From a virus, in IMG/VR virus record IMGVR_UViG_3300045988_038410: DNA of 37,482 bases; one strand, written 5' to 3'. This document shows positions 1,995 through 31,293 of the stretch, piece after piece; within the stretch, counting starts at the first letter, position 1; each line of letters opens with the position of its first letter. Made by a program: the position numbers and the translations under genes. The notes under the pieces were generated by a model, which ran no database searches, was not told the origin of the DNA, and saw nothing but the letters and a program-made list of their open reading frames with translations.

Positions 1995-3963
1995 TGTTGA
2001 TCTCCTCCTTTCGGTCGATCTGTTCGATGGTAAAGCTGTAAGTGCTGAAGAAATCGTCAGAGTTTTCCGTGATGCTGGCCGGGTAGCCGATGGTCATGTT
2101 GCCCTCCGGCGTCTTGCAGCAGGTCGGGTGTCCGAGCAGTGCCCTGAGAGACTGCCGCTCCGCGTCGTCCGCGCAGACGCAGGTGATCCGCAGCGCGCGG
2201 GACTTAAATTCGCTTCGCTCCGCGACCGGGTAGGTGTGCCCGGAGAGCTGGACATATTGGATGTCCTGGGACAGGCTCAGACCCGTGCTGCGGTGTGCCG
2301 AAGAATCATAGAGGAAATGCAGCCATTCGCCGCGCTCCATGTCGTAGAGTCGGACTTTGTCTGTGCCGACCGTGACCTCCACGGCCTCGGACAGACTGTA
2401 ATTGTCGCTGTTGTCGTAGCAGCCGCGCACCTGATAGCGCACAACACCAATGCTGGCTGCATCGGTGTAGCTCGGTTCCGTGACCTTTGCGATAGCCACT
2501 CCATTCCGATAGACCAGATAGTAGTCAAAGCTGCCCGGCGTCCAGCTGAGCGCCGCCTCAATGCCGCCCTCGGCGGTCAGCGTGATCGCGCCGCCCGGTA
2601 CGTTTGTGACCGGAAGCGCCGCCGTGCCCCACGGTGACCAAAAGCCGTATTCGTTCTGCACACGGACGCGCACCGTGTAGCTGCCGTCAGCCAGATAGAA
2701 CGGTGCCTTCCACGTCTTCCCGGTGCCGAAGCGCGTACCGGAGGTATAGACGCCGTCGATCTCGACTTGGTAGGCTTGCTGTTCATCCGCTTGCCAGCGG
2801 ATCTCCGGGCGCGGCTCTGTGGACACGATAGACACGGGCGGTGTTGCAGGGGCAGCCAGCACAATAAACTGTGTGGCAGCGCTCCATGCGCCCGCAGCAC
2901 CCTTGGAATTGTACGTCCGCACGCGCCAGTATTTTGTGCCGGAGGTAAACGTCCCGGCAGGAGCCGTCCATGTGTTGGCTGCACCGGTGACGGTTGCCAG
3001 CGCCGTCCATGTGCTGCCGTCCGTGCTCTGCTGCAATTCGGCCTTCGTTTGGGCCGTGCCGGTCGAAATGACATGTTCCCATTTGAATACGTTGTCGGAC
3101 GATCCGTCGAGGACTGCCCGGTCAGGAGCAACCGCAACGGCTGTGGATTCCACATCGGTCAGCGAGAGCGTCATCCAATCGGAGGTCGTGGTGACGCCGC
3201 TGTTCGCGGTCACGCTGAGCTGCCACTGGATGCTGTCGCCGGAAAAAGTATTTGCCGGGATGGTGATGGAGGTGGCCGTGCCGGGCACGTCGATTTCTTT
3301 GACCGTGTCGGATGCAGATTTGCGCCAGCGGAACTTTGCAGACGTGCGAGAAATCTCCGCATAGCAGGTTCCGCTTGCAGCTTCTTTCCATGAAAATACA
3401 TTGCTGTTTGCAGCAACAATTGACCCGTTCGATGGTGCAGCATTAGATATTGTTAGTCCAATAATTTCATCGCCAATACTGACCTCCAAGTAAGGAGGGT
3501 TCGCGCTTCTCGATGATTGCACTGCATACCATGATGAGACATCGGTCATCAAACCACATCTCAAAATTTTAGAAAAACTATTAAATGCATCAACCCATGA
3601 TTTTGAATCATATCCGGTTTTATACAAATACAGGGAATAACTACTGCCGCCTATACGCCCGGGTGCATTTTGGTAATTTAATGTGCTAGCATCGAATGAT
3701 TTACTTATCGGATCAACGCTTCCGACGGTCTCGGTGTGAGCGGGAGAATACAGCGAGCGATAGTACAGATACGATATGATTGTTTCAACCTTCTGAAATT
3801 GATATGCGGCAGGAATTGGCTGAAATGAGACATACATTTTGTAAAATGCTCTATTATTAAGCGCATCAGATGAATATTCTGTCTCTGTGTTAAAGGTAGT
3901 CGTTGGTTGAGAATACAGTGTTGCCGCAGACTGCACCGCTTGGAGCGTTAGCGTTGTACTCAT
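1984..3963 (-). CDS. Distal tail protein (Dit)-like, with a long N-terminal extension of Ig/FN3-like repeats, 659 aa
   Basis: ATGA overlap with the TMP stop. The C-terminal ~130 aa (RLYDMERGEWLHFLYD...FSTYSFTIEQI) resembles the siphovirus tail-family (Dit) fold. The middle holds repeated WxxA / Y.VR beta-sandwich-like units. Confidence 0.65.
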   Translation of the reverse strand: MSTTLTLQAVQSAATLYSQPTTTFNTETEYSSDALNNRAFYKMYVSFQPIPAAYQFQKVETIISYLYYRSLYSPAHTETVGSVDPISKSFDASTLNYQNAPGRIGGSSYSLYLYKTGYDSKSWVDAFNSFSKILRCGLMTDVSSWYAVQSSRSANPPYLEVSIGDEIIGLTISNAAPSNGSIVAANSNVFSWKEAASGTCYAEISRTSAKFRWRKSASDTVKEIDVPGTATSITIPANTFSGDSIQWQLSVTANSGVTTTSDWMTLSLTDVESTAVAVAPDRAVLDGSSDNVFKWEHVISTGTAQTKAELQQSTDGSTWTALATVTGAANTWTAPAGTFTSGTKYWRVRTYNSKGAAGAWSAATQFIVLAAPATPPVSIVSTEPRPEIRWQADEQQAYQVEIDGVYTSGTRFGTGKTWKAPFYLADGSYTVRVRVQNEYGFWSPWGTAALPVTNVPGGAITLTAEGGIEAALSWTPGSFDYYLVYRNGVAIAKVTEPSYTDAASIGVVRYQVRGCYDNSDNYSLSEAVEVTVGTDKVRLYDMERGEWLHFLYDSSAHRSTGLSLSQDIQYVQLSGHTYPVAERSEFKSRALRITCVCADDAERQSLRALLGHPTCCKTPEGNMTIGYPASITENSDDFFSTYSFTIEQIDRKEEINIDS

Positions 3964-5957
3964 CCCGTTGCACCTCCCATTCGAACCACTCTGCGGCGCT
4001 CCTGCACGATGCGGAGGATGTCCTCAAATTCCCGAACCGTGTGGGCGTCGATCGTGATGTTGTAAGTATCGCCGCCGGTCTGGCGCGTTTCCTGCGCGGT
4101 CAGGATGCGCGTGCCCTGCGGCAGGATCGCGGTCTCCGCGCCGTGCTCGCTCAGCAGCGTCCGCCCACCGGGAAACCAGTCTGTGCCGCTGGCGTTTCGA
4201 GTGTAACCCATGGCCTGTTTCCATGCCTCGAATGAGCCGACAACGCCTCCAGCGTTCAGTTCTGACTCCCACTGTTCGCGCAGGTATGCATCACGGTTAC
4301 CGTAATACTTGCCGTTGGCGTAGTACGCGCCGTATCCGGCTGCGTTTGTGGCGGCGTTGGTGTCAGCACCTTCCCACTGTGCCCAAAGGCGTTGTTGGTT
4401 GCTCGGCTGATTCTTGTTCATGCCAAGTCCTGTGCCGATTTTCGTAAACCCACTAGCCCATTTGTCGAAATGCCAGAGAGGTGTTGTGGCCAAAGTGACA
4501 AGGCCGGAAATCACTTGAAGTGTGTCAGCAATCAGCGCGATGACCTCCGACAGAGGCCGCAACGCCTTCGTGAGATTCGGAACAGCTCCATTGGCCAAGT
4601 CATCTGTCGGTGCGATGATGTTTCCAACTGTCTCAAGCAGCATGCCAAAAGAATCCACCAAGCCGGATTCCTTCATTGCCTGCCCGCCGTCCTTGATGAG
4701 CTTCGTGATCTTTTCATAAAATTCCGTGAGGTACGGGGCAAACTCGGCAGAGAGCTGATTTTTCGCGCTCTCCTGCGATTTTTGCAGGCGCTGATATGCG
4801 TCGTCTACCTCCGTCAGAGCCGTCAGCGCCTCGTTGTCCAGAACATAGCCCATATCATGCGCCTCGTCGGCGTACTTTTTCAGCGCGCCGCTGCCTGCAT
4901 CAATCAGTGGGTTCAATTCTTGCGCAGACTCGGACATGAGATCCATGGCCAGCGCGTCCCGCTCCGTGCGATTCTCCATCTGGCCGAGCGCGTCGATCGT
5001 GTCGTAAAAGACATCCTCCGCGCTGCGCAGATTGCCGTTTGCGTCCGTGATGGACACGCCAAGCTTGGCATAGGCTGCCGCCGTGGCCTCATTTCCGTCC
5101 CGCGCCTCCTGCATCTTATTGGTGGTTTCTTTCAGACTGTCCCGGATGCGGTCGGACGAGACGCCGATCATCTCGGCGGCATAATCGAACTCCTGAAGGC
5201 TCTCCACTGACTGCCCCGTGACGCTGGAAAACGTCTTGATTTCCTTGGCATATTCAGCACTTTTCTTCGTCATGGAGATCAGAGCCTTTTCGGTCTTGAC
5301 CACCGCAGCGACCACAAGGCCAAGGCCGGTCACGGCCAGAGCCGCACCTGCATGGATGCCGTTGAGAGATTCCACGGCCTTCTGGGCGCCCTCCGGAAGC
5401 TGGATGCCGAACTTCCCGGCCACATCCGTCAGCGCGTCACCAAGGCCGCGGACAACCTCGTCGTTGCCGGAGAACTCCTCCTTGAGATTGGCAAACAGGC
5501 CTTTGATGCCGCCGCCCTGTTCCTTGGTGTCGGACAGCGCCTTTTTCAGCTTTCCAAAGGCGGTCGTCGTGCCGTCTGTCTCTTTCTGGGCCTTTTGGAG
5601 CGCGTCCTCGTTGTCCTTTAATGCACGCTCCATCTTGACCAATTCGGCCTGTGCGTTGTTGAGCTGCGTTTTCCAGCGATTGGTGCGCTCATCGGCTTCG
5701 CCGTAGGCGGAGGCCGAGGACTGGAGTGCCTTTTCGATCTGCTCGATTTTTTCCTTCTGCGTCAGGATTGTGCGGTCGAGGATGTCGTTTTTCTTGGTCA
5801 GTGCTTCGACGCTGTCCGCGTTATCCCGAAACTGCTCGGACGCGAGATTCAGTTCGGATTTCAGGACGTTCAGGCCGCTCTTGATCTCGGCCAGCGCAGC
5901 CTTGTATTCCCGCTCGCCGTCCAGTTTGATTTTTGAGTTGATACTCGGGGCAGCCAT
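3960..5957 (-). CDS. Tail tape measure protein, 665 aa
   Basis: Long coiled-coil and Ala/Gly-rich protein directly after the chaperone pair. ATG at 5957 is preceded by GGGAGGTG (the track start at 5960 is a TTG). Confidence 0.9.
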   Translation of the reverse strand: MAAPSINSKIKLDGEREYKAALAEIKSGLNVLKSELNLASEQFRDNADSVEALTKKNDILDRTILTQKEKIEQIEKALQSSASAYGEADERTNRWKTQLNNAQAELVKMERALKDNEDALQKAQKETDGTTTAFGKLKKALSDTKEQGGGIKGLFANLKEEFSGNDEVVRGLGDALTDVAGKFGIQLPEGAQKAVESLNGIHAGAALAVTGLGLVVAAVVKTEKALISMTKKSAEYAKEIKTFSSVTGQSVESLQEFDYAAEMIGVSSDRIRDSLKETTNKMQEARDGNEATAAAYAKLGVSITDANGNLRSAEDVFYDTIDALGQMENRTERDALAMDLMSESAQELNPLIDAGSGALKKYADEAHDMGYVLDNEALTALTEVDDAYQRLQKSQESAKNQLSAEFAPYLTEFYEKITKLIKDGGQAMKESGLVDSFGMLLETVGNIIAPTDDLANGAVPNLTKALRPLSEVIALIADTLQVISGLVTLATTPLWHFDKWASGFTKIGTGLGMNKNQPSNQQRLWAQWEGADTNAATNAAGYGAYYANGKYYGNRDAYLREQWESELNAGGVVGSFEAWKQAMGYTRNASGTDWFPGGRTLLSEHGAETAILPQGTRILTAQETRQTGGDTYNITIDAHTVREFEDILRIVQERRRVVRMGGATG

Positions 5958-22946: not shown

Positions 22947-23751
22947 GGTCAGCGCCTCCTCTCAGCATATCGTCCATTGTGACGGGCGGCTCCAAATACT
23001 CCTGCACAAAGCTGCGGTAATCATAGCCGGCGGCGCTGCGCGGGGAATAGATGGCGATGGGCTTGCGCTCGAAGGTCATCTCGTCGACCTTGTCGGTGCG
23101 GCGAATGACCGTCTGAAATACTGGCAGCAGGCCGCAGTCGCGGAGACTGCCCTCGGCCTCCAGCACGACGGGCACGTTGCGCCACATGGTGATGAGAGCC
23201 CCGGCAACGCGGATCTTGGGATTGATGCGCTGCATGTTGTCAATCTGGCGGCTGACATTGGCCAGCCCACGGATGGAAAAGGCGTCGAGCTTGATCGGGA
23301 TGATGACCTCATCCGCAGCCAGAAGCGCCGCGGCGCTCGCTGCATTAAAGGCCGGCGGGCAGTCAAACAGGACGTAGTCGTACTCGTCATCCTCACCGAT
23401 CGTGCAGCACAGATCCGCGAGGACACGGCCATTGACGTGTTGGCTGGTGATTTGGGACATGTCCATGTCCATCAGCTCATCGGAGCCGGGGATCACATCG
23501 ACGCCGGGATAATCCGTTCCGGCGACCAGCTCCGAGACGTACGGTTCGAAGTCGCCGCGCAGGATGTCGGCCAGCGTGACCGTTCCCATTCCGGGCCGCA
23601 CACCGAAGAACTCCGTCGCGTTGCACTGGCTGTCGCAGTCAACCAGGAGCACGCGCTGCTTGTGATCGGCGGCCAGGATGTGGGCCATGTTGACGGCAGT
23701 GACGGTCTTTCCGACGCCGCCTTTCAAATTTAGAATTGCGATTGCTTTCAT
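22936..23751 (-). CDS. parA: ParA/Soj-family ATPase, 271 aa
   Basis: Deviant Walker A motif ILNLKGGVGKT. ATGA overlap with the dnaB stop. Confidence 0.88.
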   Translation of the reverse strand: MKAIAILNLKGGVGKTVTAVNMAHILAADHKQRVLLVDCDSQCNATEFFGVRPGMGTVTLADILRGDFEPYVSELVAGTDYPGVDVIPGSDELMDMDMSQITSQHVNGRVLADLCCTIGEDDEYDYVLFDCPPAFNAASAAALLAADEVIIPIKLDAFSIRGLANVSRQIDNMQRINPKIRVAGALITMWRNVPVVLEAEGSLRDCGLLPVFQTVIRRTDKVDEMTFERKPIAIYSPRSAAGYDYRSFVQEYLEPPVTMDDMLRGGADRAV

Positions 23752-25115
23752 GTGTTATCTTCCTTTCGTTCAAACGGGAAATCATCCGGGAGCGGTTCGC
23801 TTTTTGGAAGTTCCCGGAATTCCTGCATTTTCGTCTGTTGCTGCACTTCCTCGCGGCGCTGCTTGCGCTCGTTCGGCTTATCGCTGAACGTCTGCATTTC
23901 GCCGTCGAAATGGAGCTTGAATGAACCGCCGGCTGCGCCGGTCTTGATCTTGCCGAAGGTGATGATGCGATCGGCATCCTTTACCTTTTGATCCTCGCGG
24001 AACATCAGGAGGACAGTGTCCGCGTCCTGCTCAATCTGGCCGGTGCTGCGGAGGCTGGACATTGTCGGCGGCGGGATCATTCCGTCCTTGTTGCGCTGCG
24101 GCCTCGTCATCTGGCTGAGGGCCACGATCGTCACACCGCACTGGAGGCCGAAGAGCTTGAGCGCGCGGCTGTTCGCGCTGACTCGTTGGAAATCCTCCTG
24201 TTCCCATCGGCTTTTTCCGCTGGACGGAATGAGCTGGACATAGTCGATGTAGATCACGTCGTAGTGGTGCGCCATCGTGTAGAGGCGGATGTCCGTGACC
24301 GTCATGCCGGCGGCCTCAATGATGTCGAGATTACGGCCCGTGAAATCTGTGGAAATGTAGGCCAGTTCGTCCCACTCGTTTTCGCCGAGTTTGTTGAGTT
24401 GGATGGTTGGCAGGCCGATCTGCGCGGCAGCGCAGACCATCGCGTCTGCCAGCTTCCCGCAGTTTGTTTCATAGCTGAAGAACCCGACCTTTTTGGTTTT
24501 TGCCTGCTCTCGGGCCGTGTGCAGTGCAAGAGTGGTCTTGCCGTCCGAGGGATAGCCGCCGATGTAGATGAGGTCTCCCGGCTCCGTCCGGAGGTATTTG
24601 TTGAGCTTGGCAAACTTCCACGGCAGGAAGTCCGGCTTGACGGATGGATCGTGCCGCCGGTAGAAATCTTCCAGTGCCTGTGCCATATTCATGGCTCGGA
24701 TGCCCGGCTTGTCGACCATGATGCGGTTGACCTGATCCAGCGCCGTGCGGATCTCGTCTTCGTCCTCCGCGTCGAGCATTGCGCTGGCTGCGTCCTTGAG
24801 CAGCTGCAAGCGGGCCTCGCTCCGCAGGATACGGCAATACTCGCGGACATTGGCGGCGGTCGGCGTGACCGTGATGATCTGGCCGATCAGGTCGGCGTAG
24901 GCTTTTCCGGCCCGGTCGAGCACCGTCACGGCATCGATCGGACGTCCCTCGCCAGCCAGCGCACGGATCGCATTGAAGATCGTCCGATACTGGCCGACCG
25001 TAAAATAGTCCTCCTTGATCGTCTCCATCACGACGGGGACGCAGCGCGAATCGATGATCATCGAGCCGAGGACAGAAGTCTGTGCGCTGATCAGCGCATC
25101 TTGTTTGCTGGCCAT
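23748..25115 (-). CDS. dnaB: Replicative DNA helicase (DnaB family), 455 aa
   Basis: The N-terminal domain pattern AQTSVLGSMIID, Walker A GGYPSDGKTTLAL and overall length fit DnaB. ATG at 25115 (TGATG overlap). Confidence 0.9.
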   Translation of the reverse strand: MASKQDALISAQTSVLGSMIIDSRCVPVVMETIKEDYFTVGQYRTIFNAIRALAGEGRPIDAVTVLDRAGKAYADLIGQIITVTPTAANVREYCRILRSEARLQLLKDAASAMLDAEDEDEIRTALDQVNRIMVDKPGIRAMNMAQALEDFYRRHDPSVKPDFLPWKFAKLNKYLRTEPGDLIYIGGYPSDGKTTLALHTAREQAKTKKVGFFSYETNCGKLADAMVCAAAQIGLPTIQLNKLGENEWDELAYISTDFTGRNLDIIEAAGMTVTDIRLYTMAHHYDVIYIDYVQLIPSSGKSRWEQEDFQRVSANSRALKLFGLQCGVTIVALSQMTRPQRNKDGMIPPPTMSSLRSTGQIEQDADTVLLMFREDQKVKDADRIITFGKIKTGAAGGSFKLHFDGEMQTFSDKPNERKQRREEVQQQTKMQEFRELPKSEPLPDDFPFERKEDNT

Positions 25116-25888
25116 CACACAAACTCCACGCCGCTGAGATCCACGCGCCCGGCATTGTCGGCTGGGGCTGCACGGTGGAGCTGCGCCAGCTCATCAGGTT
25201 TCAGCTGATATAGACTGAGCCATTGGTTTTCCACGGCACGCTCAAATAGCGCGAGCATATGCTGCGGATCTCCAGAGGACAGCTTGATCAATTTATTCCA
25301 GAGCATGGTTGCTGACCGTTCTGAGACAAGGGGCTTGTCAAGCTCCTTGCGCATCCCCAAAAAGTTAGACATTGCAGCCCGGACATCGGGCCCGTATGTA
25401 TCACACCGATCGAGGAGAGCCGACGCAACAGCGTCAGCCGATTGCGGCTTTTCTTTTTTCTTTTTCTTTTTATTCTCTTTTTTATATCCATCCTTATATA
25501 TAGACGGGGAAGTTTGTCCCCCTACCAGGGGATTTTTATCCCCGTACGTACCGGGACATTCGTCCCCGTACCCATCCTGCGAGGGCGTGATGGACGGCTC
25601 TGCCAGCACTGGCGAGATGTAGCGGATTTTGCCGCCGACCTTGCGGTTTGGCTCGATGCGGACGCGGATGTGTCCGGCCTCGGCCAGCGCCGACACCCAT
25701 CGTTTGACCACGTCCTCGGAGCAGTGCATCGCCTCGGCAAGCTGCGCATTGCTCGGCCAGCAATAACCCTCGCGCCGCATCAGCGACGACAGTACCCCAT
25801 AGAGGATCTTCGCATTGGCCGGGATGGACATATCATCCAGCACCGTGGCCGGGATGACCGACCAGAAGGCGCGAAAATCTTTGCTCAA
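25115..25888 (-). CDS. Replisome organizer / replication initiator with N-terminal wHTH, about 257 aa
   Basis: SKDFRAFWSVIPATVLDDMSIPANAKILYGVLSSLMRREGYCWPSNAQLA is typical of phage HTH replication proteins upstream of DnaB. The probable start is TTG at 25888, after AAGGGGGTGA. Confidence 0.75.
   Translation of the reverse strand: MSKDFRAFWSVIPATVLDDMSIPANAKILYGVLSSLMRREGYCWPSNAQLAEAMHCSEDVVKRWVSALAEAGHIRVRIEPNRKVGGKIRYISPVLAEPSITPSQDGYGDECPGTYGDKNPLVGGQTSPSIYKDGYKKENKKKKKKEKPQSADAVASALLDRCDTYGPDVRAAMSNFLGMRKELDKPLVSERSATMLWNKLIKLSSGDPQHMLALFERAVENQWLSLYQLKPDELAQLHRAAPADNAGRVDLSGVEFV
25447..25572. repeat. Intragenic ori-like region: T-rich tract plus three GGGGA/TCCCC inverted repeats and three TCCCCnTAC direct repeats
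   Basis: Inverted repeats at 25506-25521, 25528-25543 and 25553-25566. Direct repeats start at 25517, 25539 and 25563. A pyrimidine/AT-rich tract spans 25447-25500. Confidence 0.5.
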
Positions 25889-26727: not shown

Positions 26728-26847
26728 TCAAAATGCGCCGAGCTTTTTCAGCTCAATGATCCACCCAAGCAGCGCAAGCGCCGTCAGGGTCGGCTTGATC
26801 CACATGCCGATACGGTATCGGCGTTCCTCTTTCTCTCGATCGTTCAT
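26728..26847 (-). CDS. Small membrane protein, 39 aa (below the ORF-track cutoff)
   Basis: Translation: MNDREKEERRYRIGMWIKPTLTALALLGWIIELKKLGAF. ATGA overlap with the upstream stop. Confidence 0.45.
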   Translation of the reverse strand: MNDREKEERRYRIGMWIKPTLTALALLGWIIELKKLGAF

Positions 26848-27026
26848 ACGCGTGACCTCCGATCATAGTAGCCAGCCAGATACTGATCAATAAAATCTTC
26901 CGCGGGTTCTGCGGAGAGTTCTATTGCAGTTTCGGCAACCGAGCCCAATGCGCGGATTTTTTCCTCGGCCTCAGAGAGCCGCCGCTCTAGGCTCATGACC
27001 TTGCGCCGCAATCTTGGGTCCGTCAT
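26844..27026 (-). CDS. Small coiled-coil protein, 60 aa
   Basis: The ATG at 27026 forms an ATGA overlap with the Cro-like stop. The track ORF (to 27134) overlaps the Cro-like gene. Confidence 0.5.
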   Translation of the reverse strand: MTDPRLRRKVMSLERRLSEAEEKIRALGSVAETAIELSAEPAEDFIDQYLAGYYDRRSRV

Positions 27027-27235
27027 CCGCCCGCCTTCTTTCCGCCGTTGTAAAGATCGTCGATGGTGCAATTCAGCGCTTCGGCCAGACGGCCCACCAG
27101 TGCCCCGCGCGGGAAGGCATCGCCGCTTTCCCATTTTGCAACAGAGCTGCGCTCGACGCCAATGCGCTCAGCAAGCTCACGCTGCGTCAAACCGGCTTCC
27201 TCTCGAATTGTGCGAAGTCCTCTCAAATATTTCAC
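27023..27235 (-). CDS. Cro-like XRE HTH regulator, 67-70 aa
   Basis: HTH stretch LRTIREEAGLTQRELAERIGVERSSVAKWESG. It is the first gene of the early operon. The start is GTG 27235 or TTG 27226 (SD AGAGGGTGA). Confidence 0.85.
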   Translation of the reverse strand: MKYLRGLRTIREEAGLTQRELAERIGVERSSVAKWESGDAFPRGALVGRLAEALNCTIDDLYNGGKKAGG

Positions 27236-27248
27236 CCTCTTTCAATTA

Positions 27249-27353
27249 TGTGGAGTTTCTTCACATTTCGGATTATAAGTGAAGAATCTTCAAATGTCAA
27301 GATATTTTTGTGATATTTTTTCACATTATATTTACTTGTGAATTTTTTTCACT
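27249..27353. promoter_or_regulatory. Four 17-bp operator-like inverted repeats (O1-O4)
   Basis: TGTGGAGtttCTTCACA 27249-27265; AGTGAAGaatCTTCAAA 27278-27294; TGTGATAtttTTTCACA 27309-27325; TGTGAATtttTTTCACT 27337-27353. Confidence 0.75.
27272..27300 (-). promoter_or_regulatory. Consensus sigma-A-type early promoter (Cro side)
   Basis: On the minus strand: TTGACA (27300-27295), a 17-nt spacer, then TATAAT (27277-27272). The spacer is exactly O2. Confidence 0.8.
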
Positions 27354-27358
27354 ATAAT
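27331..27358 (+). promoter_or_regulatory. Candidate repressor-side promoter
   Basis: TTTACT (27331-27336), a 16-nt spacer, then TATAAT (27353-27358). The spacer is O4. The ATG lies 17 nt downstream. Confidence 0.6.
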
Positions 27359-27374
27359 AAAAACAGGTGATGAT

Positions 27375-27701
27375 ATGAGAAACTTCAAAAAATACCGTCA
27401 AATCAACAAAGAAAAGCAAACTGATGTTGCAAATTGGCTCGGAATCGACCGCAGCACCTATGCAAAATATGAAGCAGGGTCTACGGAGCCGCCGTTCAGC
27501 ACACTTGTTAGACTGGCTGAGCACTGGAATACGACCGTTTATGATTTGATGGGATATGAAGATAAAAAAAGCCCCGCCGGGCGGATGCCCAGCGAGGTAA
27601 TTGAAGCTGCTCAAATTCTCAATTCGCTTGATTCTGCGACGCGGCAACGGATGATTGATCTTCTTGTGACGCTGCATACGCAGCAAACAGAGCGGAAGTG
27701 A
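27375..27701 (+). CDS. CI-like XRE HTH repressor (no peptidase domain), 108 aa
   Basis: HTH stretch KQTDVANWLGIDRSTYAKYEAGSTEPPFSTLVRLAEHW. Divergent from the Cro-like gene. Confidence 0.85.
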   Translation: MRNFKKYRQINKEKQTDVANWLGIDRSTYAKYEAGSTEPPFSTLVRLAEHWNTTVYDLMGYEDKKSPAGRMPSEVIEAAQILNSLDSATRQRMIDLLVTLHTQQTERK

Positions 27702-27875
27702 ACCTTGCCCAGTTCTCATCATTCAGGTCGAGCATCATTTCAATAATTTGTTCCATAGCAGCGATTCCCTTTCTTTTCATTTTCAAACCTCATAGCGGTT
27801 GTATTATTTATAATATTATACTATGCAGCATGAATCGACATGTTGCGCAAAATCTTATAGTGATGGAGTGGGAAA

Positions 27876-28820
27876 ATGAATTATACCAAGTACACGGAAG
27901 GTTTCAACTCTGAACGCTGGAGTTTCAACGCTGCTGGCGTAACTTTCCGCAACGAAGATGGGACGGAGCGGCAAGAAATCATCTCGCACTTGTATGGAAA
28001 TACAGAATATACCGTTCGGATTGAACGCTTCGAGTACCAGAAGAATCCTGCCTATCATATACTCGTAGATGGCCAAGTAATAGGGAACGTACCGAAGAAT
28101 GTCGCATCTCAGTTTGCGGAAAAGGAAGACGTGGGCTTTTGGATTTGTCCTGTATCTCTTGGAGTACATGGCGGCCCGGCTCTTGATGATGACTTTGACG
28201 CCGAAGATTTTGATGATGTAGCCGAAGAACTGAGCTACGGAGCGCATGTCGTTGTAAAACTCATAAGCCCCGAAGAGCAAAAGGCAAAGAATATGTCAAT
28301 AGGTGACGATGTGACACTGCACCAAGAACGGCCCGACAACCCTCTTGATCATATCGATGGGTGCGACGAGCTTCTTTTGCCAGCAACTAAGGCTGTCTTA
28401 GATGCGAATGAGGCCTCGACGGCAGTTTTGCAGCGCTCGCTTAAAATCGGGTATTCGCAGGCGGCCAAATTGCTTGACACGATGGAATCCTACAACATTG
28501 TTGGCCCGTTCGCCGGCTCGGAGATCCGGGCAATCTTAGTAACCCGCGAGCAGCTAGATGAGAAAATCGGCAAGCATAGCGTTTCGGAGGAAGTCATTGC
28601 CGATGTGGGACAACCACCACCATCGCGGCCAGCAGCAACAGCCGCTGTATCGAAGGAGCGTCGGACAGCTCTGGCGGCTACGCAGCCGCATGATGAAAAG
28701 CTGCTGCGTGCCCGGCGCTCCGCTAACGCCGCGAGACGGGTGCGAAAAATTGCGCTCTGGATCGCGCTTGCGCTGGTGCTCCTTGCTATACTGATCAGCA
28801 AGTTGCCACCGATATTGTGA
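27876..28820 (+). CDS. HIRAN-like domain + FtsK-gamma winged-helix domain + C-terminal transmembrane anchor, 314 aa
   Basis: HIRAN-like stretch FNAAGVTFRNEDG...QKNPAYHILVDGQVIGNVPKNVA. FtsK-gamma-like stretch ASTAVLQRSLKIGYSQAAKLLDTMESYNIVGPFAGSEIRAILVT. C-terminal helix IALWIALALVLLAILISKL. Confidence 0.75.
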   Translation: MNYTKYTEGFNSERWSFNAAGVTFRNEDGTERQEIISHLYGNTEYTVRIERFEYQKNPAYHILVDGQVIGNVPKNVASQFAEKEDVGFWICPVSLGVHGGPALDDDFDAEDFDDVAEELSYGAHVVVKLISPEEQKAKNMSIGDDVTLHQERPDNPLDHIDGCDELLLPATKAVLDANEASTAVLQRSLKIGYSQAAKLLDTMESYNIVGPFAGSEIRAILVTREQLDEKIGKHSVSEEVIADVGQPPPSRPAATAAVSKERRTALAATQPHDEKLLRARRSANAARRVRKIALWIALALVLLAILISKLPPIL

Positions 28821-28828
28821 TGGGATCA

Positions 28829-28866
28829 CCCCGTCGTCGATCATCCCATCGACGGCGGGGCTTTTT
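28829..28866 (+). terminator. Strong rho-independent terminator
   Basis: A 13-bp stem, CCCCGTCGTCGAT (28829-28841) pairing with ATCGACGGCGGGG (28848-28860), followed by CTTTTT. Confidence 0.85.
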
Positions 28867-29048
28867 GGCCGCTGCAAGCGTGTGGGAGCTGCTTGCAAGT
28901 ACAGATTACACCCCGGGAAGGTGATTTGTCGAGAACCGTAATTTCCTTTTTTGTTCCCATAAAAGTGCTTTTTTTGAAAGGAAGTCGTTTTTTGAAACAA
29001 GATTTGTCTGAAATTTGTCGAAACAAGAAGGAAAGCCGCTATCCGAAC

Positions 29049-29450
29049 ATGACCTATCAAGATTTGGCTAACGCCTCCGGAAAGTCTCTGAAGAACATTG
29101 GTCAATTCATGCGCGGTGAAATATTAAATCCCGGAATCGACACCGTAGGCCCTGTCTGTCGCCTCCTGCATATCTCGCTCGACCGCTTTTTTGACATCCA
29201 CCCGGATGATGTTCCACCGGAATCTGATATCCCGCAGGAGCTTCACGACGCACGGAAGGAAATTGAGCACCTACGTCAAACAGTCGCGTTCTGCCAGCAA
29301 TCCATGAAGTTAAAGCGAAAGATCATCGCCGCGCTGCTCGGCATTGTCTTTCTGGCCGGGATACTCCTGCTCGTCGATCTGCTCAGTCCAAAGATCGGCT
29401 GGGTGCGCGACCATCTGACGGCTGCGATCTGTCTCCGCTCTTGGGGGTGA
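29049..29450 (+). CDS. Membrane-anchored XRE-type HTH protein, 133 aa
   Basis: HTH stretch MTYQDLANASGKSLKNIGQFMRGEILNPGIDTVGPVCRLLHISLDRFF. Transmembrane helix IIAALLGIVFLAGILLLVDLL. The stop lies 4 nt before the int ATG. Confidence 0.7.
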   Translation: MTYQDLANASGKSLKNIGQFMRGEILNPGIDTVGPVCRLLHISLDRFFDIHPDDVPPESDIPQELHDARKEIEHLRQTVAFCQQSMKLKRKIIAALLGIVFLAGILLLVDLLSPKIGWVRDHLTAAICLRSWG

Positions 29451-29454
29451 CGCT

Positions 29455-30567
29455 ATGATCTGCCGCAAATGTAAACAAGACGTTCCGGACGGCCCATTCT
29501 GCGCCCAGTGCGGCGCGAAGCAGGAGAGGCCGGAACGAAGACCAAAAGCACGGGGGAATGGCACCGGCAGTGTCTACAAGCTGCCGAATGGCACATGGCG
29601 CGCCGTTGCTACGATTGGCTATATTCCAGGGCCAGATGGGAAGCCTCTGCGCCGGACGCGAACGAAGAGCGGCTTTAAAACAAAACGCGAAGCGCAGGAG
29701 TATATCCCGCAGCTCCGCGTCCAGCTTTCCGCCTTGTCAGCAAACATCACATTCCGGCAAATCTATGAAAAATGGGAGGCCGAGCACGAAAAGGACGTAA
29801 AGGCCAGCACAATGAATTGCTACAAGGCTGCCTACAAATACTATGAACCGATCTGGTTTGCGAAGATGGCCGATTTAAAGACGGCAGCATTGCAGGCCTG
29901 CCTGGATGCCTGTCCGAAGGGGCGCCGGACGCAGGAGAACATGAAGGCACTGGGGACAATGCTGTTTCGCTTTGCAATGCGCGACGACGTCGTCAGCAAG
30001 AATTATGCGGAGCTGCTCCGTGTGGGCGGCGAGACGCAGGCTGGCCGCGAACCGTTTACCGATGAAGAGCTCGAAAAAATGAAAAAAGCCGTCGGCACAG
30101 TGCCAAGGATCGAGCTTGTGCTCATCCTGTGTTACACCGGCTTCCGGCTTGAGGAGCTGCTCCAGCTCCAGGACACAGATCTCCATTATGATGAGATCAA
30201 CCAGAGCTATTATTTTGTCGGCGGCGAAAAGACCGAGGCCGGTATGCACCGTATTGTGGCCATCAGCCCTAAAATCATTGACTACGTGCTGCAATGGGAA
30301 AAGCCAGGATTCATCTTTTCCGAGGACGGGAAGAAAGTGCAGCAGAAAAAATTCCGAGAGAAATGGTATTATCCGGCGCTGGAGCAGGCAGGAGTGCGCC
30401 GCCTGGTGCCGCACTCCTGTCGCCATACTTTTGCAACCCTCATGAAAAAAATTGACGCGCCGGACGCTGACAAAATGGCCATGATCGGGCACACTTCGAT
30501 GGAAATGACCACACATTACACCCATACCGACCTGAAATCTGCCGTAAATATCGCCACACAGCTCTAA
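29455..30567 (+). CDS. int: Tyrosine integrase with N-terminal zinc ribbon, 370 aa
   Basis: Zinc ribbon CRKC...CAQCG. Arm-binding-like stretch GSVYKLPNGTWRAV. Catalytic-region motifs HSCRHTFATLM and GHTSMEMTTHYTH. Confidence 0.92.
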   Translation: MICRKCKQDVPDGPFCAQCGAKQERPERRPKARGNGTGSVYKLPNGTWRAVATIGYIPGPDGKPLRRTRTKSGFKTKREAQEYIPQLRVQLSALSANITFRQIYEKWEAEHEKDVKASTMNCYKAAYKYYEPIWFAKMADLKTAALQACLDACPKGRRTQENMKALGTMLFRFAMRDDVVSKNYAELLRVGGETQAGREPFTDEELEKMKKAVGTVPRIELVLILCYTGFRLEELLQLQDTDLHYDEINQSYYFVGGEKTEAGMHRIVAISPKIIDYVLQWEKPGFIFSEDGKKVQQKKFREKWYYPALEQAGVRRLVPHSCRHTFATLMKKIDAPDADKMAMIGHTSMEMTTHYTHTDLKSAVNIATQL

Positions 30568-30584
30568 TTTGCCCTCTTGATATG

Positions 30585-30607
30585 GTATGCAACAGAGTAT
30601 GCAATAG
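30585..30607 (+). repeat. Arm-type-like direct repeats, left of the core (2 copies)
   Basis: GTATGCAACAG at 30585-30595 and GTATGCAATAG at 30597-30607. Confidence 0.6.
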
Positions 30608-30656
30608 ACCAAAACAGACCGGTTTAGTCCGATTCATACCAGTATAATTTCGCAAA

Positions 30657-30701
30657 GGAACAAAAGAAAAGTACCGCAAAACATACGTTTTGCGGTACTT
30701 T
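30657..30701 (-). terminator. Rho-independent terminator placed 1 nt after the tRNA-like 3' end
   Basis: A 15-bp stem (30668-30682 pairing with 30687-30701), followed on the minus strand by TCTTTTGTT. Confidence 0.75.
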
Positions 30702-30702
30702 C

Positions 30703-30750
30703 TGGTCCGAGTGACTAGATTCGAACTAGCGGCCTCTTGAACCCCATTCA
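30703..30750 (-). other. attP core candidate: 3' 48 nt of a tRNA-Pro(GGG)-like gene (not a complete tRNA)
   Basis: The minus strand reads TGAATGGGGTTCAAG-AGGCC-GCTAG-TTCGAAT-CTAGT-CACTCGG-A-CCA. This gives anticodon loop AUGGGGU, a T-arm, a 3' acceptor strand implying C1:G72, A73 and CCA. No matching 5' acceptor strand lies upstream. Confidence 0.7.
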
Positions 30751-30768
30751 TTCAGGATGTGTTGATTT

Positions 30769-30810
30769 TACAATAGAAATTTTGTTGTATCTGCAATAGA
30801 TGTGCAATAG
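30769..30810 (+). repeat. Arm-type-like direct repeats, right of the core (3 copies)
   Basis: TACAATAG at 30769-30776, TGCAATAG at 30792-30799 and TGCAATAG at 30803-30810. They have the same orientation as the left copies. Confidence 0.6.
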
Positions 30811-30813
30811 GCG

Positions 30814-31293
30814 TTAGCTGTGACGGAGCACAATCCCATGATAATACCCGGCCATCTTCGCTTCCGCTCCTCCGGCGTCCTTATCCATGAGGAAGGCTTT
30901 GGCAAGGTCGGCATAGAATTCCGGCCGGTCTAGGCCGTACTTGGCAGCTACGCCGTAATAGTCCGAATACATCATGTTCATCGCCGCCCACCAGACGCAG
31001 GACTTCTCATGGACGCCTGCGACGTTGGCCACAGCGTCCGTCTGCTCCATTGTCCAGTGTGCGCCGGTCGTGCCGTCCTCGTTCTTCATGTGCGATACCC
31101 ACTTTTCGGCATCCTCGCGGGTGAATTCCATCATTTTCGTGGACTCACGAAAATGGTCATCGTCCAGTTTGTGCAGCGCACAAATGGCATCCGCGTACAC
31201 CGTGACTTCTTCCGCGCGCCCAAGCGTAGCCGGGCGCTCCATGATCTCATGCAGCTGCTCTTTCAGCTGCTCAATGTAATGTTCTTTTCCCAT
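30814..31293 (-). CDS. Hypothetical protein C of the attP-proximal cassette, 159 aa
   Basis: ATG lies 7 nt after GGAGG, and the gene begins 1 nt after the stop of protein B. Conserved-looking core: HWTMEQTDAVA...WWAAMNMMYSDYYGVAAKYG. Confidence 0.7.
   Translation of the reverse strand: MGKEHYIEQLKEQLHEIMERPATLGRAEEVTVYADAICALHKLDDDHFRESTKMMEFTREDAEKWVSHMKNEDGTTGAHWTMEQTDAVANVAGVHEKSCVWWAAMNMMYSDYYGVAAKYGLDRPEFYADLAKAFLMDKDAGGAEAKMAGYYHGIVLRHS

What the first reader, a model, noticed from the sequence alone, without database searches (positions are those of the whole stretch)
27876..28820. Repressor-side gene encoding a HIRAN-like + FtsK-gamma + tail-anchor protein: candidate new prophage-encoded exclusion or DNA-sensing factor
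This 314-aa ORF lies on the repressor side of the switch, between the CI-like gene and a strong terminator (28829-28866), so it is predicted to be made in the lysogen.

Read from the translation:
- Residues ~15-95 look like a HIRAN fold (FNAAGVTFRNEDGTERQEII...QKNPAYHILVDGQVIGNVPKNVASQF). HIRAN is a module known to bind 3'-OH DNA ends.
- An acidic linker follows (DDDFDAEDFDD).
- Residues ~175-240 match the FtsK/SpoIIIE gamma winged helix (ASTAVLQRSLKIGYSQAAKLLDTMESYNIVGPFAGSEIRAILVT versus the canonical LQRxxRIGYNRAARxxDxxExxGIVGPxxGSKPREVLV). That domain reads KOPS and activates XerD, but here it has no translocase motor.
- A C-terminal hydrophobic anchor closes the protein (IALWIALALVLLAILISKL).

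The 5' half of the gene is about 43% GC against about 60% for the phage, which suggests a moron. I know of no characterised phage protein with this architecture. One hypothesis is a membrane-tethered DNA-end plus DNA-motif reader that blocks incoming DNA. Another is that it modulates Xer/FtsK.
Basis: partly seen in the sequence, partly recalled or inferred. Interest (0 to 1): 0.7.

Follow-up and report, generated by a model that had tools for sequence, protein, structure and literature searches.

The report
Membrane-anchored HIRAN-like/FtsK-gamma prophage protein
A gut Clostridia prophage carries, right after its repressor gene, a real and conserved gene for a membrane-tethered protein with two DNA-binding-type modules; it most likely protects the lysogen from incoming DNA, but its function is untested.

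Summary
The 314-aa ORF (27876-28820, +) is real and under purifying selection. It lies between a CI-like repressor gene and the only + strand terminator in the region.

- **FtsK-gamma:** confirmed (Pfam E=2.6e-17, residues 164-223). There is no translocase motor.
- **C-terminal anchor:** supported by hydropathy. A TM helix spans residues about 291-309, preceded by a basic stretch.
- **HIRAN:** supported only as remote homology. Pfam HIRAN does not hit the protein, and a confident AlphaFold model matches no solved HIRAN. The N-domain profile does reach bona fide HIRAN-repeat proteins (hhalign 94%). The canonical NPYD-NAI motif is replaced, and the domain is strongly acidic.
- **Acidic stretch:** the "acidic linker" is a loop inside the N-domain, which runs to about residue 150.

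The N-domain defines a large uncharacterised family of at least 1131 clusters. Most members are membrane-tethered on the cytoplasmic side. They typically sit in the repressor-to-integrase slot of Clostridia prophages, or as lone morons.

The gamma domain is an optional add-on. Related phages fill the same slot with gamma-less variants, which argues against a role with Xer or the integrase.

Best reading (about 0.4): a lysogen-expressed, membrane-tethered factor for superinfection exclusion or defence. It is a new variant of a known kind, of moderate interest.

The parts
27876..28820 (+). 314-aa ORF: tail-anchored membrane protein (HIRAN-like domain, FtsK-gamma winged helix, flexible linker, TM helix).
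   Evidence: Eight full-length homologue clusters. dN/dS is 0.16-0.24 overall.
27865..27872 (+). Shine-Dalgarno-like GGAGTGGG; the GGAG core ends 7 nt upstream of the ATG.
   Evidence: Read directly from the sequence. All homologues start MNYTK.
27876..28325 (+). Residues 1-150: divergent HIRAN-superfamily beta-barrel domain. Conserved residues are G21, V22, N26, D28, G29, R32, Q33, A59, G70, G99 and Y121, plus aromatic positions F24, F52, Y54 and Y60.
   Evidence: AF2 model has pLDDT 89.9 and pTM 0.83. 1131 representative clusters match the profile. 10 of 107 relatives hit Pfam HIRAN. hhalign gives 94% to a HIRAN repeat of P0087. No Pfam HIRAN hit for the protein itself and no PDB fold match.
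28182..28232 (+). Residues 103-119: acidic loop LDDDFDAEDFDDVAEEL (net -10) inside the N-domain, between its last two core strands.
   Evidence: Low pLDDT (52-69) flanked by strands with pLDDT above 90. Charge. An acidic loop of variable length is present across the family.
28365..28544 (+). Residues 164-223: FtsK-gamma winged-helix domain. The recognition helix reads Y193-S-Q-A-A-K198-L-L-D201-T-M-E204.
   Evidence: Pfam PF09397 E=2.6e-17. PDB FtsK gamma chains E=2e-6. dN/dS 0.08-0.21.
28551..28688 (+). Residues 226-271: Pro/Ala/Ser-rich variable linker (flexible tether). It ends at a recombination breakpoint shared with gamma-less relatives.
   Evidence: pLDDT below 50. dN/dS 0.58-0.77. DNA identity to L014/L015 begins at 28688.
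28689..28802 (+). Residues 272-309: basic juxtamembrane helix (net +5) followed by the TM helix (residues about 291-309). Five residues (LPPIL) follow the TM helix.
   Evidence: Hydropathy and charge. Predicted helix 272-308. dN/dS 0.07-0.11. The same tail occurs on P0014.
28829..28866 (+). Intrinsic-terminator-like hairpin (13 bp, 9 GC) plus T-run that closes the transcription unit.
   Evidence: It is the only + strand terminator-like site between 26900 and 30900.
27780..27807 (+). Weak promoter-like site (TTTTCA-16-TATTAT, 9/12) in the CI-to-ORF spacer. Read-through from the CI promoter (27331-27358) is also possible.
   Evidence: These are consensus matches only.
27375..27701 (+). Context: CI-like Xre-family repressor gene (108 aa, no S24 peptidase domain), immediately upstream on the same strand.
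   Evidence: Pfam HTH_19/HTH_3. PHROG transcriptional regulator/repressor.
28992..29450 (+). Context: gene for a membrane-anchored Xre-like HTH protein (133-152 aa), conserved between the ORF and the integrase.
   Evidence: Conserved in relatives.
29455..30567 (+). Context: tyrosine integrase.
   Evidence: Pfam Phage_integrase E=5e-15 and Arm-DNA-bind_4.

Best explanation
The gene is a lysogeny-module 'moron' of a temperate phage of gut Clostridia.

**Proposed arrangement.** The product is inserted in the cytoplasmic membrane by a single C-terminal helix. About 290 residues face the cytoplasm. These comprise an acidic, divergent HIRAN-superfamily beta-barrel, an FtsK-gamma winged helix, and a roughly 60-residue flexible tether.

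**Proposed mechanism.** I propose that the protein is made in the lysogen, either with the repressor or from its own promoter. It would act at the inner face of the membrane on incoming nucleic acid or on the nucleoprotein complex that brings it in. The HIRAN-like pocket and the gamma wHTH would capture and hold that material. A superinfecting phage genome could then not circularise, replicate or be expressed. This is superinfection exclusion or defence without an enzymatic effector.

**Shown here:** the ORF, the domain architecture, the predicted topology, purifying selection on the three modules, and the conserved position next to the repressor. The modular family and the optional nature of the gamma domain are also shown.

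**Inferred:** expression in the lysogen, nucleic-acid binding, and the protective phenotype.
For: **Position**
- The gene is on the same strand as the CI-like repressor and directly downstream of it. No + strand terminator lies between them, and a strong one lies right after the gene.
- All close homologues and N-domain paralogues occupy the same slot: repressor, this gene, HTH-TM gene, integrase.
- Distant family members in Clostridia MAG prophages also sit between an HTH or HTH+S24 repressor and a tyrosine integrase. Others are lone opposite-strand genes inside structural modules, a classical moron position.
- In Firmicute prophages this interval is where membrane-associated Sie proteins are found (PMC7693887).

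**Membrane tethering**
- 125 of 162 family members have TM segments.
- Charge bias and TM parity place the domain in the cytoplasm in most of them.

**Nucleic-acid-type modules**
- The gamma domain is confirmed.
- The HIRAN superfamily link is supported.
- Gamma and the HIRAN-like domain co-occur in three different orders: the window type, P0114 (TM-gamma-N-domain) and P0031 (N-domain-gamma).

**Parallels**
- A faecal phage contig encodes an HTH repressor-like gene followed by a protein of 2 TM + FtsK_gamma + Mrr_cat nuclease.
- Canonical HIRAN relatives match PADLOC PDC-M03B, the partner of a HipA kinase. HIRAN there has been proposed to sense phage DNA ends.

**Selection**
- dN/dS is 0.07-0.21 in the N-domain, gamma and anchor, but 0.58-0.77 in the tether.
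Against: - There is no experimental evidence.
- The protein has no enzymatic or pore-forming effector domain.
- PADLOC, Pfam, NCBIfam and PHROGs give no functional assignment for the protein itself.
- The canonical HIRAN 3'-end-binding motif is not conserved. The N-domain is strongly acidic (net -15; family mean -8.5), with R32 the only conserved basic residue. The gamma domain is net -2. DNA binding is therefore not assured.
- No solved HIRAN structure is matched by Foldseek.
- The cassette exchange seen between relatives includes the repressor. The variability of the slot may therefore reflect immunity swapping rather than an arms race on this gene.
- Expression in the lysogen is inferred only from gene order and consensus promoter/terminator matches.
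- A strong convergent promoter-like site lies inside the first 32 nt of the gene.
Confidence: 0.4

Rival explanations
1. Lysogenic-conversion factor that is unrelated to incoming DNA. The acidic HIRAN-like domain binds a host protein or small ligand. The protein would alter host physiology at the membrane (for example division, sporulation or envelope functions) to the benefit of the lysogen.
For: - The N-domain is strongly acidic, with a conserved aromatic/polar pocket (F24, N26, D28, R32, Q33, Y54, Y60, Y121) rather than a basic surface.
- Paralogues in the same slot carry extracytoplasmic C-terminal domains, which suggests membrane-associated or trans-membrane roles (P0009, P0012/13).
- No defence model hits the protein.
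Against: - The recurrent fusion to the DNA-binding FtsK-gamma domain, in three different orders, points to nucleic acid.
- Homology to HIRAN, whose characterised members bind DNA ends.
Confidence: 0.2
2. Membrane tether for the phage's own or the host's DNA. The protein would anchor prophage, phage-replicon or chromosome DNA to the membrane for replication, segregation or maintenance. This resembles phi29 p16.7 (comparison from my own knowledge of that protein) or a helper of the phage's ParA-like system.
For: - A membrane anchor combined with a sequence-reading wHTH.
- The phage encodes a ParA-like ATPase and DUF3102/ParB_N proteins as well as DnaB.
- The gamma domain resembles that of a Clostridia-type FtsK (about 50% identity, same YS-AA-D-ME helix).
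Against: - The gene lies on the repressor side, not in the replication module.
- Gamma is dispensable in otherwise near-identical phages.
- Canonical KOPS/SRS motifs are not enriched in the phage genome: GGGNAGGG 0 against 4.0 expected, GAGAAGGG 1 against 1.2 expected.
- Many family members are lone morons in structural modules.
Confidence: 0.12
3. Regulator of site-specific recombination or of FtsK. The isolated gamma domain would activate or inhibit host XerD-type recombinases or the phage integrase, or compete with host FtsK/SpoIIIE for its guide motifs.
For: - Isolated FtsK gamma is sufficient to activate XerCD-dif recombination in E. coli (PMC3130261).
- The gene lies two genes upstream of a tyrosine integrase.
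Against: - The TEKRKA motif implicated in XerD contact is LDANEA here (PMC2965235).
- The KOPS-reading Arg1300 is Lys here and Leu in P0114. The preceding Asn-Arg are Ser-Gln (PMC2680272).
- Phages L014/L015 share 96.5% DNA identity across the anchor, the HTH-TM gene and the integrase, yet carry a gamma-less protein.
- The minimal paralogue is N-domain plus anchor only (P0010/11).
Confidence: 0.08
4. Abortive-infection sensor-effector, or induction sensor. The cytoplasmic modules would sense phage DNA or DNA damage. The output would be either membrane permeabilisation through oligomerisation of the TM helix, or inactivation of the S24-less CI repressor.
For: - 'Sensor domain + TM' is a common logic in single-gene defence systems (my own knowledge).
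- The CI here lacks an autocleavage domain.
- The N-domain head is exchanged together with CI as one cassette.
Against: - A single TM helix with a 5-residue external tail is a poor pore former.
- Family members also occur next to S24-containing, self-cleaving repressors (L019, L038).
- Family members also occur outside lysogeny modules.
Confidence: 0.1

Closest known systems
FtsK/SpoIIIE gamma regulatory domain (PF09397; PDB 2j5o, 2ve8/2ve9, 2j5p)
   Same: Residues 164-223 are a clear sequence match to the 63-residue winged helix (Pfam E=2.6e-17; PDB E=2e-6). The helix-3 frame G-Y-x-x-A-A-x-h-h-[DE]-x-M-E and the GPF-GS wing seen in a Clostridia-type FtsK are shared.
   Different: - No alpha/beta motor and no N-terminal polytopic membrane domain.
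- The domain is anchored by a C-terminal helix.
- The KOPS-reading residues are changed (N-R to S-Q, R1300 to K).
- The XerD-contact TEKRKA motif reads LDANEA.
- The role of stand-alone gamma genes in phages is stated to be unknown (PMC8190038).
HIRAN domain (PF08797): HLTF/Rad5, bacterial HipN/HipL, and PADLOC PDC-M03B
   Same: - Same order of secondary-structure elements: a beta-barrel core with two helices, compared with a six-stranded barrel plus two helices in HLTF (PMC4666394).
- Shared motifs GV[TS]F, RQ, IGxVP-xxA and GG...YG with the canonical HIRAN repeats of P0087.
- Relatives hit Pfam HIRAN and PDC-M03B.
   Different: - Below Pfam detection for this protein.
- NPYDxNAI is replaced by [EY]xYxGxPAY.
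- Extra N-x-DG insert, N-terminal hairpin, internal acidic loop and C-terminal extension.
- Strongly acidic.
- No Foldseek match to 4xzf, 4s0n or 3k2y.
- No adjacent HipA kinase.
Membrane-associated superinfection-exclusion proteins of Firmicute prophages (Sie2009 and relatives); P22 SieA as a Gram-negative analogue
   Same: Encoded in the lysogeny module between the repressor and the integrase. Predicted to be membrane-associated and prophage-expressed (PMC7693887; PMC10883804).
   Different: - No sequence similarity.
[quoted passage not shown]
- This protein is tail-anchored with about 290 cytoplasmic residues carrying two DNA-binding-type modules.
- No phenotype is known.
Uncharacterised TM + FtsK_gamma + Mrr_cat protein of a human faecal phage contig (MT839334, locus L044)
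   Same: A membrane-anchored FtsK-gamma domain encoded directly downstream of an Xre-type repressor-like gene.
   Different: It carries a restriction-endonuclease effector domain and N-terminal TM helices, and it lacks the HIRAN-like domain. It is also uncharacterised.

Membership tests
FtsK/SpoIIIE DNA translocases | Gamma winged-helix domain (PF09397). | tested here: met
   Pfam E=2.6e-17, 62.7 bits against a cutoff of 30.6, residues 164-223. PDB FtsK gamma E=2e-6.
FtsK/SpoIIIE DNA translocases | RecA-like alpha/beta motor (PF17854 + PF01580) and N-terminal polytopic membrane domain. | tested here: not met
   No such Pfam hit at E<=1. A genuine FtsK (L043) gives both at E=1e-27 to 1e-67 in the same tool. 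The only hydrophobic segment is C-terminal.
FtsK/SpoIIIE DNA translocases | KOPS-reading residues of helix 3 (E. coli R1300, E1303, E1306). | tested here: inconclusive
   These align to K198, D201 and E204. The preceding N-R is S-Q. Residue roles come from PMC2680272. A Clostridia-type FtsK also has S and D at these positions.
FtsK/SpoIIIE DNA translocases | XerD-contact motif TEKRKA. | tested here: not met
   It aligns to L175-D-A-N-E-A180. The motif's role comes from PMC2965235.
HIRAN domain (PF08797) | Match to the Pfam HIRAN model above the gathering score. | tested here: not met
   No hit even at E<=1. The closest gamma-bearing paralogue P0031 reaches only E=0.009.
HIRAN domain (PF08797) | Homology detectable by profile methods. 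| tested here: met
   - The N-domain profile retrieves proteins with Pfam HIRAN domains (10 of 107).
- P0087 has 4 HIRAN repeats (E=4e-41) and is hit by the profile at E=6.8e-13 in a 1.8-billion-protein library.
- hhalign gives 94% probability, E=1.2e-7, over 100 columns.
- The profile covers the canonical repeat 76-174 at 26 bits.
- That repeat hits HLTF HIRAN 4xzf at E=0.0018.
HIRAN domain (PF08797) | HIRAN fold (six-stranded barrel with two helices), as shown by similarity to solved structures. | tested here: inconclusive
   The confident model (pLDDT 89.9) has a compatible order of strands and helices. Foldseek against PDB gives nothing below E=0.16. Against BFVD, a protein labelled 'HIRAN domain' appears only at E=0.034, TM 0.40.
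HIRAN domain (PF08797) | 3'-end binding pocket residues (HLTF Y72 and Y93 stacking; the NPYDxNAI motif). | tested here: inconclusive
   From the chained alignments, NPYDKNAI corresponds to EYQKNPAY. The Asp is not conserved (family consensus Gly). Aromatic positions F24 (98%) and Y54 (94%) are conserved near the positions of Y72 and Y93 (PMC4666394). Registers are uncertain by one residue.
HIRAN domain (PF08797) | Binding of DNA 3' ends. | not testable with these tools
   Needs EMSA or anisotropy with 3'-OH against 3'-blocked substrates.
Prophage superinfection-exclusion membrane proteins (functional class) | Encoded in the lysogeny module, between the repressor and the integrase. | tested here: met
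   Window. Relatives L001-L016. Distant members L017, L019, L020, L025, L030, L032, L038 and L039.
Prophage superinfection-exclusion membrane proteins (functional class) | Membrane association. | tested here: met
   By prediction only. The TM helix has a KD mean of 2.65, with a positive-inside bias of +5 on the N-terminal side. 125 of 162 family members have TM segments.
Prophage superinfection-exclusion membrane proteins (functional class) | Expressed from the prophage, and blocks infection or DNA entry of other phages. | not testable with these tools
   Only the promoter/terminator layout is consistent with this.
PADLOC PDC-M03 (HipA kinase + HIRAN protein) | Match to PDC-M03B models and an adjacent HipA-family kinase. 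| tested here: not met
   The window protein has no PADLOC hit at E<=1. No kinase is among its neighbours. At least 5 of 107 more canonical relatives do hit PDC-M03B.

The most novel reading that the evidence does not exclude
The N-domain would define a large, unrecognised family of membrane-tethered, cytoplasm-facing HIRAN-like sensors. This family would form a widespread prophage-encoded defence or exclusion system of gut Clostridia, built on a common chassis of HIRAN-like head plus membrane anchor. Exchangeable reader modules (FtsK-gamma, Cys-rich Zn-type, extracytoplasmic domains) would be plugged in. In this reading the FtsK-gamma domain has been co-opted from the host translocase to recognise incoming or host DNA at the membrane.
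Probability: 0.3. Interest if true: 0.75.

Novelty: new variant of a known kind. Interest (0 to 1): 0.5.

Why it matters
If the protein does exclude or sense incoming DNA, three things follow.

- It would give a first function to stand-alone FtsK-gamma genes of phages. Their role is explicitly stated to be unknown (PMC8190038).
- It would give a first function to a family of at least 1100 clusters (at 50% identity) of membrane-tethered HIRAN-like proteins. No Pfam, NCBIfam or PHROG annotation covers this family.
- It would add an effector-less, membrane-tethered DNA-capture mechanism to the known repertoire of prophage-encoded exclusion. It would do so in gut Clostridia, where phage-host biology is poorly accessible.

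It also shows how a host chromosome-segregation module, the gamma domain, is reused by mobile elements. Here it is fused with HIRAN-like, Mrr nuclease, RdgC and small-terminase partners.

Tried and rejected
- **Foldseek with the full-length AF2 model** (pLDDT 62, gamma poorly modelled from a 15-sequence alignment) gave only noise. I re-modelled the N-domain alone with a 47-sequence alignment. That gave a good model but still no PDB match.
- **N-domain profile against PDB sequences:** nothing. hhalign of the profile against a 47-residue HLTF fragment gave only 22% probability.
- **Word-indexed homologue searches** with the gamma region alone and with the tail alone returned nothing. This is probably a limit of the tool with short queries. 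These two searches were wasted.
- **Tail peptide scan of viral contigs** found only the two known close relatives.
A1 worked.
- **The best 'phage' tblastn hit to gamma** (MT835804) turned out to be a genuine 897-aa bacterial FtsK on an unverified 'phage' contig, not a phage gamma protein.
- **Canonical KOPS/SRS motifs in the window:** no enrichment. This gives no support for a self-DNA guide-motif role.
- **Rfam** on 26800-30900: nothing above chance.
- **PADLOC, NCBIfam:** no assignment for the protein.
- **Literature 'HIRAN' word-start search** mostly matched 'Hirano'. Two FtsK-gamma papers were not held.
- **The idea that low GC marks this gene alone as a moron** is rejected. The low-GC tract covers the whole switch, CI and N-domain cassette.
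Full report
**1. The observation**

The ORF is present exactly as stated: 27876..28820, + strand, 314 aa. It has a GGAG Shine-Dalgarno 7 nt upstream of the ATG.

It is a real gene. Eight homologue clusters of 307-314 aa (68-98% identity) keep the full reading frame, and all start MNYTK. Nei-Gojobori dN/dS against three relatives is:
- 0.12-0.19 for residues 1-150;
- 0.08-0.21 for the gamma region;
- 0.07-0.11 for the C-terminal anchor;
- 0.58-0.77 for residues 226-271.

So there are three constrained modules and a relaxed spacer.

The hairpin at 28829-28860 plus its T-run is the only + strand terminator-like site between 26900 and 30900. The upstream gene (27375-27701, +) is an Xre/CI-type HTH protein without an S24 domain. 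A Cro-like HTH gene (27023-27235, -) diverges from it across a spacer with face-to-face promoter-like sites. A tyrosine integrase lies at 29455-30567 (+).

GC of the first 450 nt is 46.7%, against 56.4% for the window. The low-GC tract (about 27000-28300) also covers the switch and the CI gene.

**2. Domain claims**

*FtsK-gamma.* Confirmed. Pfam PF09397 gives E=2.6e-17 over residues 164-223. Solved P. aeruginosa and E. coli gamma domains match at E=2e-6 and 1.4e-4. No motor or alpha domain is detected, whereas a genuine FtsK scanned with the same tool shows them.

*Anchor.* Residues about 291-309 have a Kyte-Doolittle mean of 2.65. They follow a +5 basic helix, and five residues follow them. 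This predicts a tail anchor with the bulk of the protein in the cytoplasm.

*HIRAN.* Pfam HIRAN does not hit the protein even at E<=1. A profile of the N-domain finds nothing among PDB sequences.

A 47-sequence alignment gave a confident AlphaFold model of residues 1-151 (pLDDT 89.9, pTM 0.83). Foldseek against PDB gave nothing better than E=0.16. In BFVD the significant matches are uncharacterised gut-phage proteins. A protein labelled 'HIRAN domain' appears only at E=0.034, TM 0.40.

Sequence profiles do connect the domain to HIRAN:
- The N-domain profile retrieves 1131 representative clusters at E<=1e-3 from 1.8 billion proteins.
- 10 of 107 of these hit Pfam HIRAN.
- One of them, P0087, carries four HIRAN repeats (E=4e-41). 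The profile hits it at E=6.8e-13. It aligns to the N-domain profile over 100 columns at 94% hhalign probability.
- The canonical repeat of P0087 matches HLTF HIRAN (4xzf, E=0.0018) and lp_0118 (3k2y).
- The N-domain profile covers that same canonical repeat.

Shared motifs are GV[TS]F, RQ, IGxVPxxxA and GG...YG.

I conclude that the N-domain is a divergent branch of the HIRAN superfamily, with these differences:
- The hallmark NPYDxNAI is replaced by [E]YxYxGxPAY, so the Asp is not conserved.
- An N-x-DG insert, an N-terminal hairpin and a C-terminal extension are added.
- The domain is strongly acidic (net -15; family mean -8.5). Its one conserved basic residue is R32. Its conserved aromatics are F24, F52, Y54, Y60 and Y121.

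In HLTF the bound dinucleotide is stacked between Y72 and Y93 (PMC4666394). F24 and Y54 may be the counterparts of these residues, but the register is uncertain. Binding of DNA 3' ends is therefore possible but not established.

**3. The family and its genomic setting**

Among the 162 sequences in hand, 125 have TM-like segments. Charge bias and TM parity break down as follows:
- 49 have two TM helices before the domain.
- Of 40 with a single TM after the domain, 32 have more Lys+Arg on the domain side.
- Of those with a single TM before the domain, 17 against 7 have more Lys+Arg on the domain side.

This pattern puts the domain in the cytoplasm in most members.

Paralogues sharing only the N-domain (about 50% identity) carry different partners:
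- anchor only (P0010/11, 204 aa);
- TM plus an extracytoplasmic domain (P0009);
- TM plus a Cys/His-rich C-terminus (P0012/13);
- N-terminal TM plus the same tail anchor but no gamma (P0014).

All of them sit in the same slot of related phages: Cro-like (-), then CI-like (+), this gene, an HTH-TM gene and the integrase.

Distant members in MAGs of uncultured Clostridia, Eubacteriales and Lachnospiraceae lie between an HTH or HTH+S24 repressor and a tyrosine integrase (L017, L019, L020). Several viral contigs show the same layout (L025, L030, L032, L039; L038 has an HTH+S24 repressor upstream). Four others are lone opposite-strand genes inside structural modules (L031, L033, L040, L041).

The gamma domain co-occurs with the HIRAN-like domain in three different arrangements:
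- N-domain, gamma, TM (the window type);
- TM, gamma, N-domain (P0114);
- N-domain, gamma (P0031).

This suggests a functional link between the two modules.

**4. Mosaicism**

Phages L014/L015 are 96.5% identical in DNA to the window from 28688 to 30700. That stretch covers the last 44 codons of the gene, the terminator, the HTH-TM gene and the integrase. They also match at 27035-27088, but show no similarity in between.

The exchanged cassette therefore contains the switch, CI, a small antisense unit, and the head of this protein (N-domain plus gamma). One breakpoint lies inside the linker. Two consequences follow:
- Gamma is not needed by the integrase or the rest of the backbone.
- The variability of the slot may partly reflect immunity swapping.

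**5. Gamma details**

Aligned to E. coli gamma, the helix YNRAAR(1300)IIE(1303)QME(1306) reads Y193-SQAAK198-LLD201-TME204. The TEKRKA motif reads LDANEA.

R1300, E1303 and E1306 contribute to KOPS reading (PMC2680272). TEKRKA appears to contact XerD (PMC2965235). Isolated gamma can activate XerCD-dif (PMC3130261).

A Clostridia-type FtsK (L043) has YSRAARIVDEME. The phage domain thus resembles its host type (about 50% identity) but has lost two arginines.

Canonical KOPS/SRS motifs are not enriched in the window.

**6. Interpretation**

The best-supported reading is a lysogen-expressed, membrane-tethered, cytoplasm-facing nucleic-acid-binding protein that acts in superinfection exclusion or defence.

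The supporting context:
- It occupies the repressor-integrase slot, where Firmicute prophages carry membrane-associated Sie genes (PMC7693887).
- The family has a moron-like distribution.
- Another phage contig encodes a membrane-anchored gamma + Mrr nuclease protein downstream of a repressor-like gene.
- Canonical HIRAN proteins serve as partners of HipA kinases in the candidate defence system PDC-M03, where sensing of phage DNA ends has been proposed.

The weaknesses are that there is no effector domain, both modules are acidic, no defence model hits the protein, and no expression or phenotype data exist. I give this reading about 0.4.

The rivals are:
- a non-DNA lysogenic-conversion role (0.2);
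- a DNA-membrane tether for maintenance or replication (0.12);
- an abortive-infection or induction sensor (0.1);
- Xer/FtsK/integrase modulation (0.08). This last is disfavoured by the motif changes and by the gamma-less variants on the same backbone.

**7. Novelty**

Each module belongs to a known superfamily, and the genomic slot is a known home of exclusion genes. But the N-domain family has no Pfam, NCBIfam or functional PHROG annotation. I found no description of the architecture HIRAN-like + FtsK-gamma + tail anchor. The role of stand-alone phage gamma genes is stated to be unknown (PMC8190038).

I rate it a new variant of a known kind, with interest 0.5.

Noticed in passing
window 27572-27907, - strand: A complete small antisense unit lies between CI and the ORF. 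It starts with a strong extended -10 promoter-like site (TTGAAA-16-TG-TATAAT, 27907->27880) inside the first 32 nt of the target gene. Next come a GAGG RBS and a 53-aa ORF (27780..27619) that overlaps the CI 3' end by 83 nt. A terminator-like hairpin (27597->27572) inside the CI coding region closes the unit. Relatives have a small - strand gene called at the same place (53 or 36 aa). There is no PHROG hit. It could be an antisense regulator of CI or an anti-repressor, and it would collide with CI-to-ORF read-through.
   Followed up: partly
window 28992-29450 (+); alternative ATG at 29049: A conserved gene between the ORF and the integrase encodes an Xre-like HTH, a coiled coil and a C-terminal TM helix, i.e. 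a membrane-anchored HTH protein of 133-152 aa. Homologues lie directly upstream of N-domain-family genes in unrelated contigs (L029, L032). It may be a functional partner of the ORF.
   Followed up: partly
L044 (MT839334.1) 1894-3774: A human faecal phage contig encodes an HTH_3 repressor-like gene followed by a 310-aa protein with two TM helices, FtsK_gamma (E=4e-24) and an Mrr_cat restriction endonuclease (E=1e-29). This is a membrane-anchored gamma-nuclease fusion that looks like a defence gene.
   Followed up: partly
window 27088-28688, compared with L014/L015: There is an immunity-cassette swap. Flanks are 96.5% identical, but there is no DNA similarity across the switch, CI, the antisense unit and the head of the ORF. 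The right-hand breakpoint lies inside the ORF's linker, at about codon 271.
   Followed up: yes
L043 (MT835804.1) 1589-4282: An 'UNVERIFIED Bacteriophage sp.' GenBank contig encodes a full-length 897-aa bacterial FtsK (alpha, motor and gamma domains). A D-alanyl-D-alanine carboxypeptidase-like gene, judged from its sequence only, lies next to it. The contig is probably bacterial DNA rather than phage.
   Followed up: partly
whole window: The E. coli-type KOPS motif GGGNAGGG is absent on both strands (0 found, 4.0 +/- 1.9 expected from shuffles). This is a mild depletion of unclear meaning.
   Followed up: no
relatives L001, L003, L005, L007-L009, L014 (the equivalent genes would lie upstream of the DnaB-like gene 23748-25118 in the window): Phages of this lineage combine a tyrosine integrase with a ParA-like ATPase (CbiA/AAA_31), a DUF3102 or ParB_N protein, and a DnaB helicase. 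This is an unusual mix of integration and partition functions. I did not scan the corresponding window ORFs against Pfam.
   Followed up: no
P0012/P0013 (loci L007-L010, 6001-6873): Paralogues in the same slot have an N-domain, a TM helix and an extracytoplasmic C-terminus ending in a Cys/His-rich motif (HxxGCS...CxxCHP). One source names it 'Metal binding domain of Ada', but there was no Pfam hit at E<=0.01.
   Followed up: no
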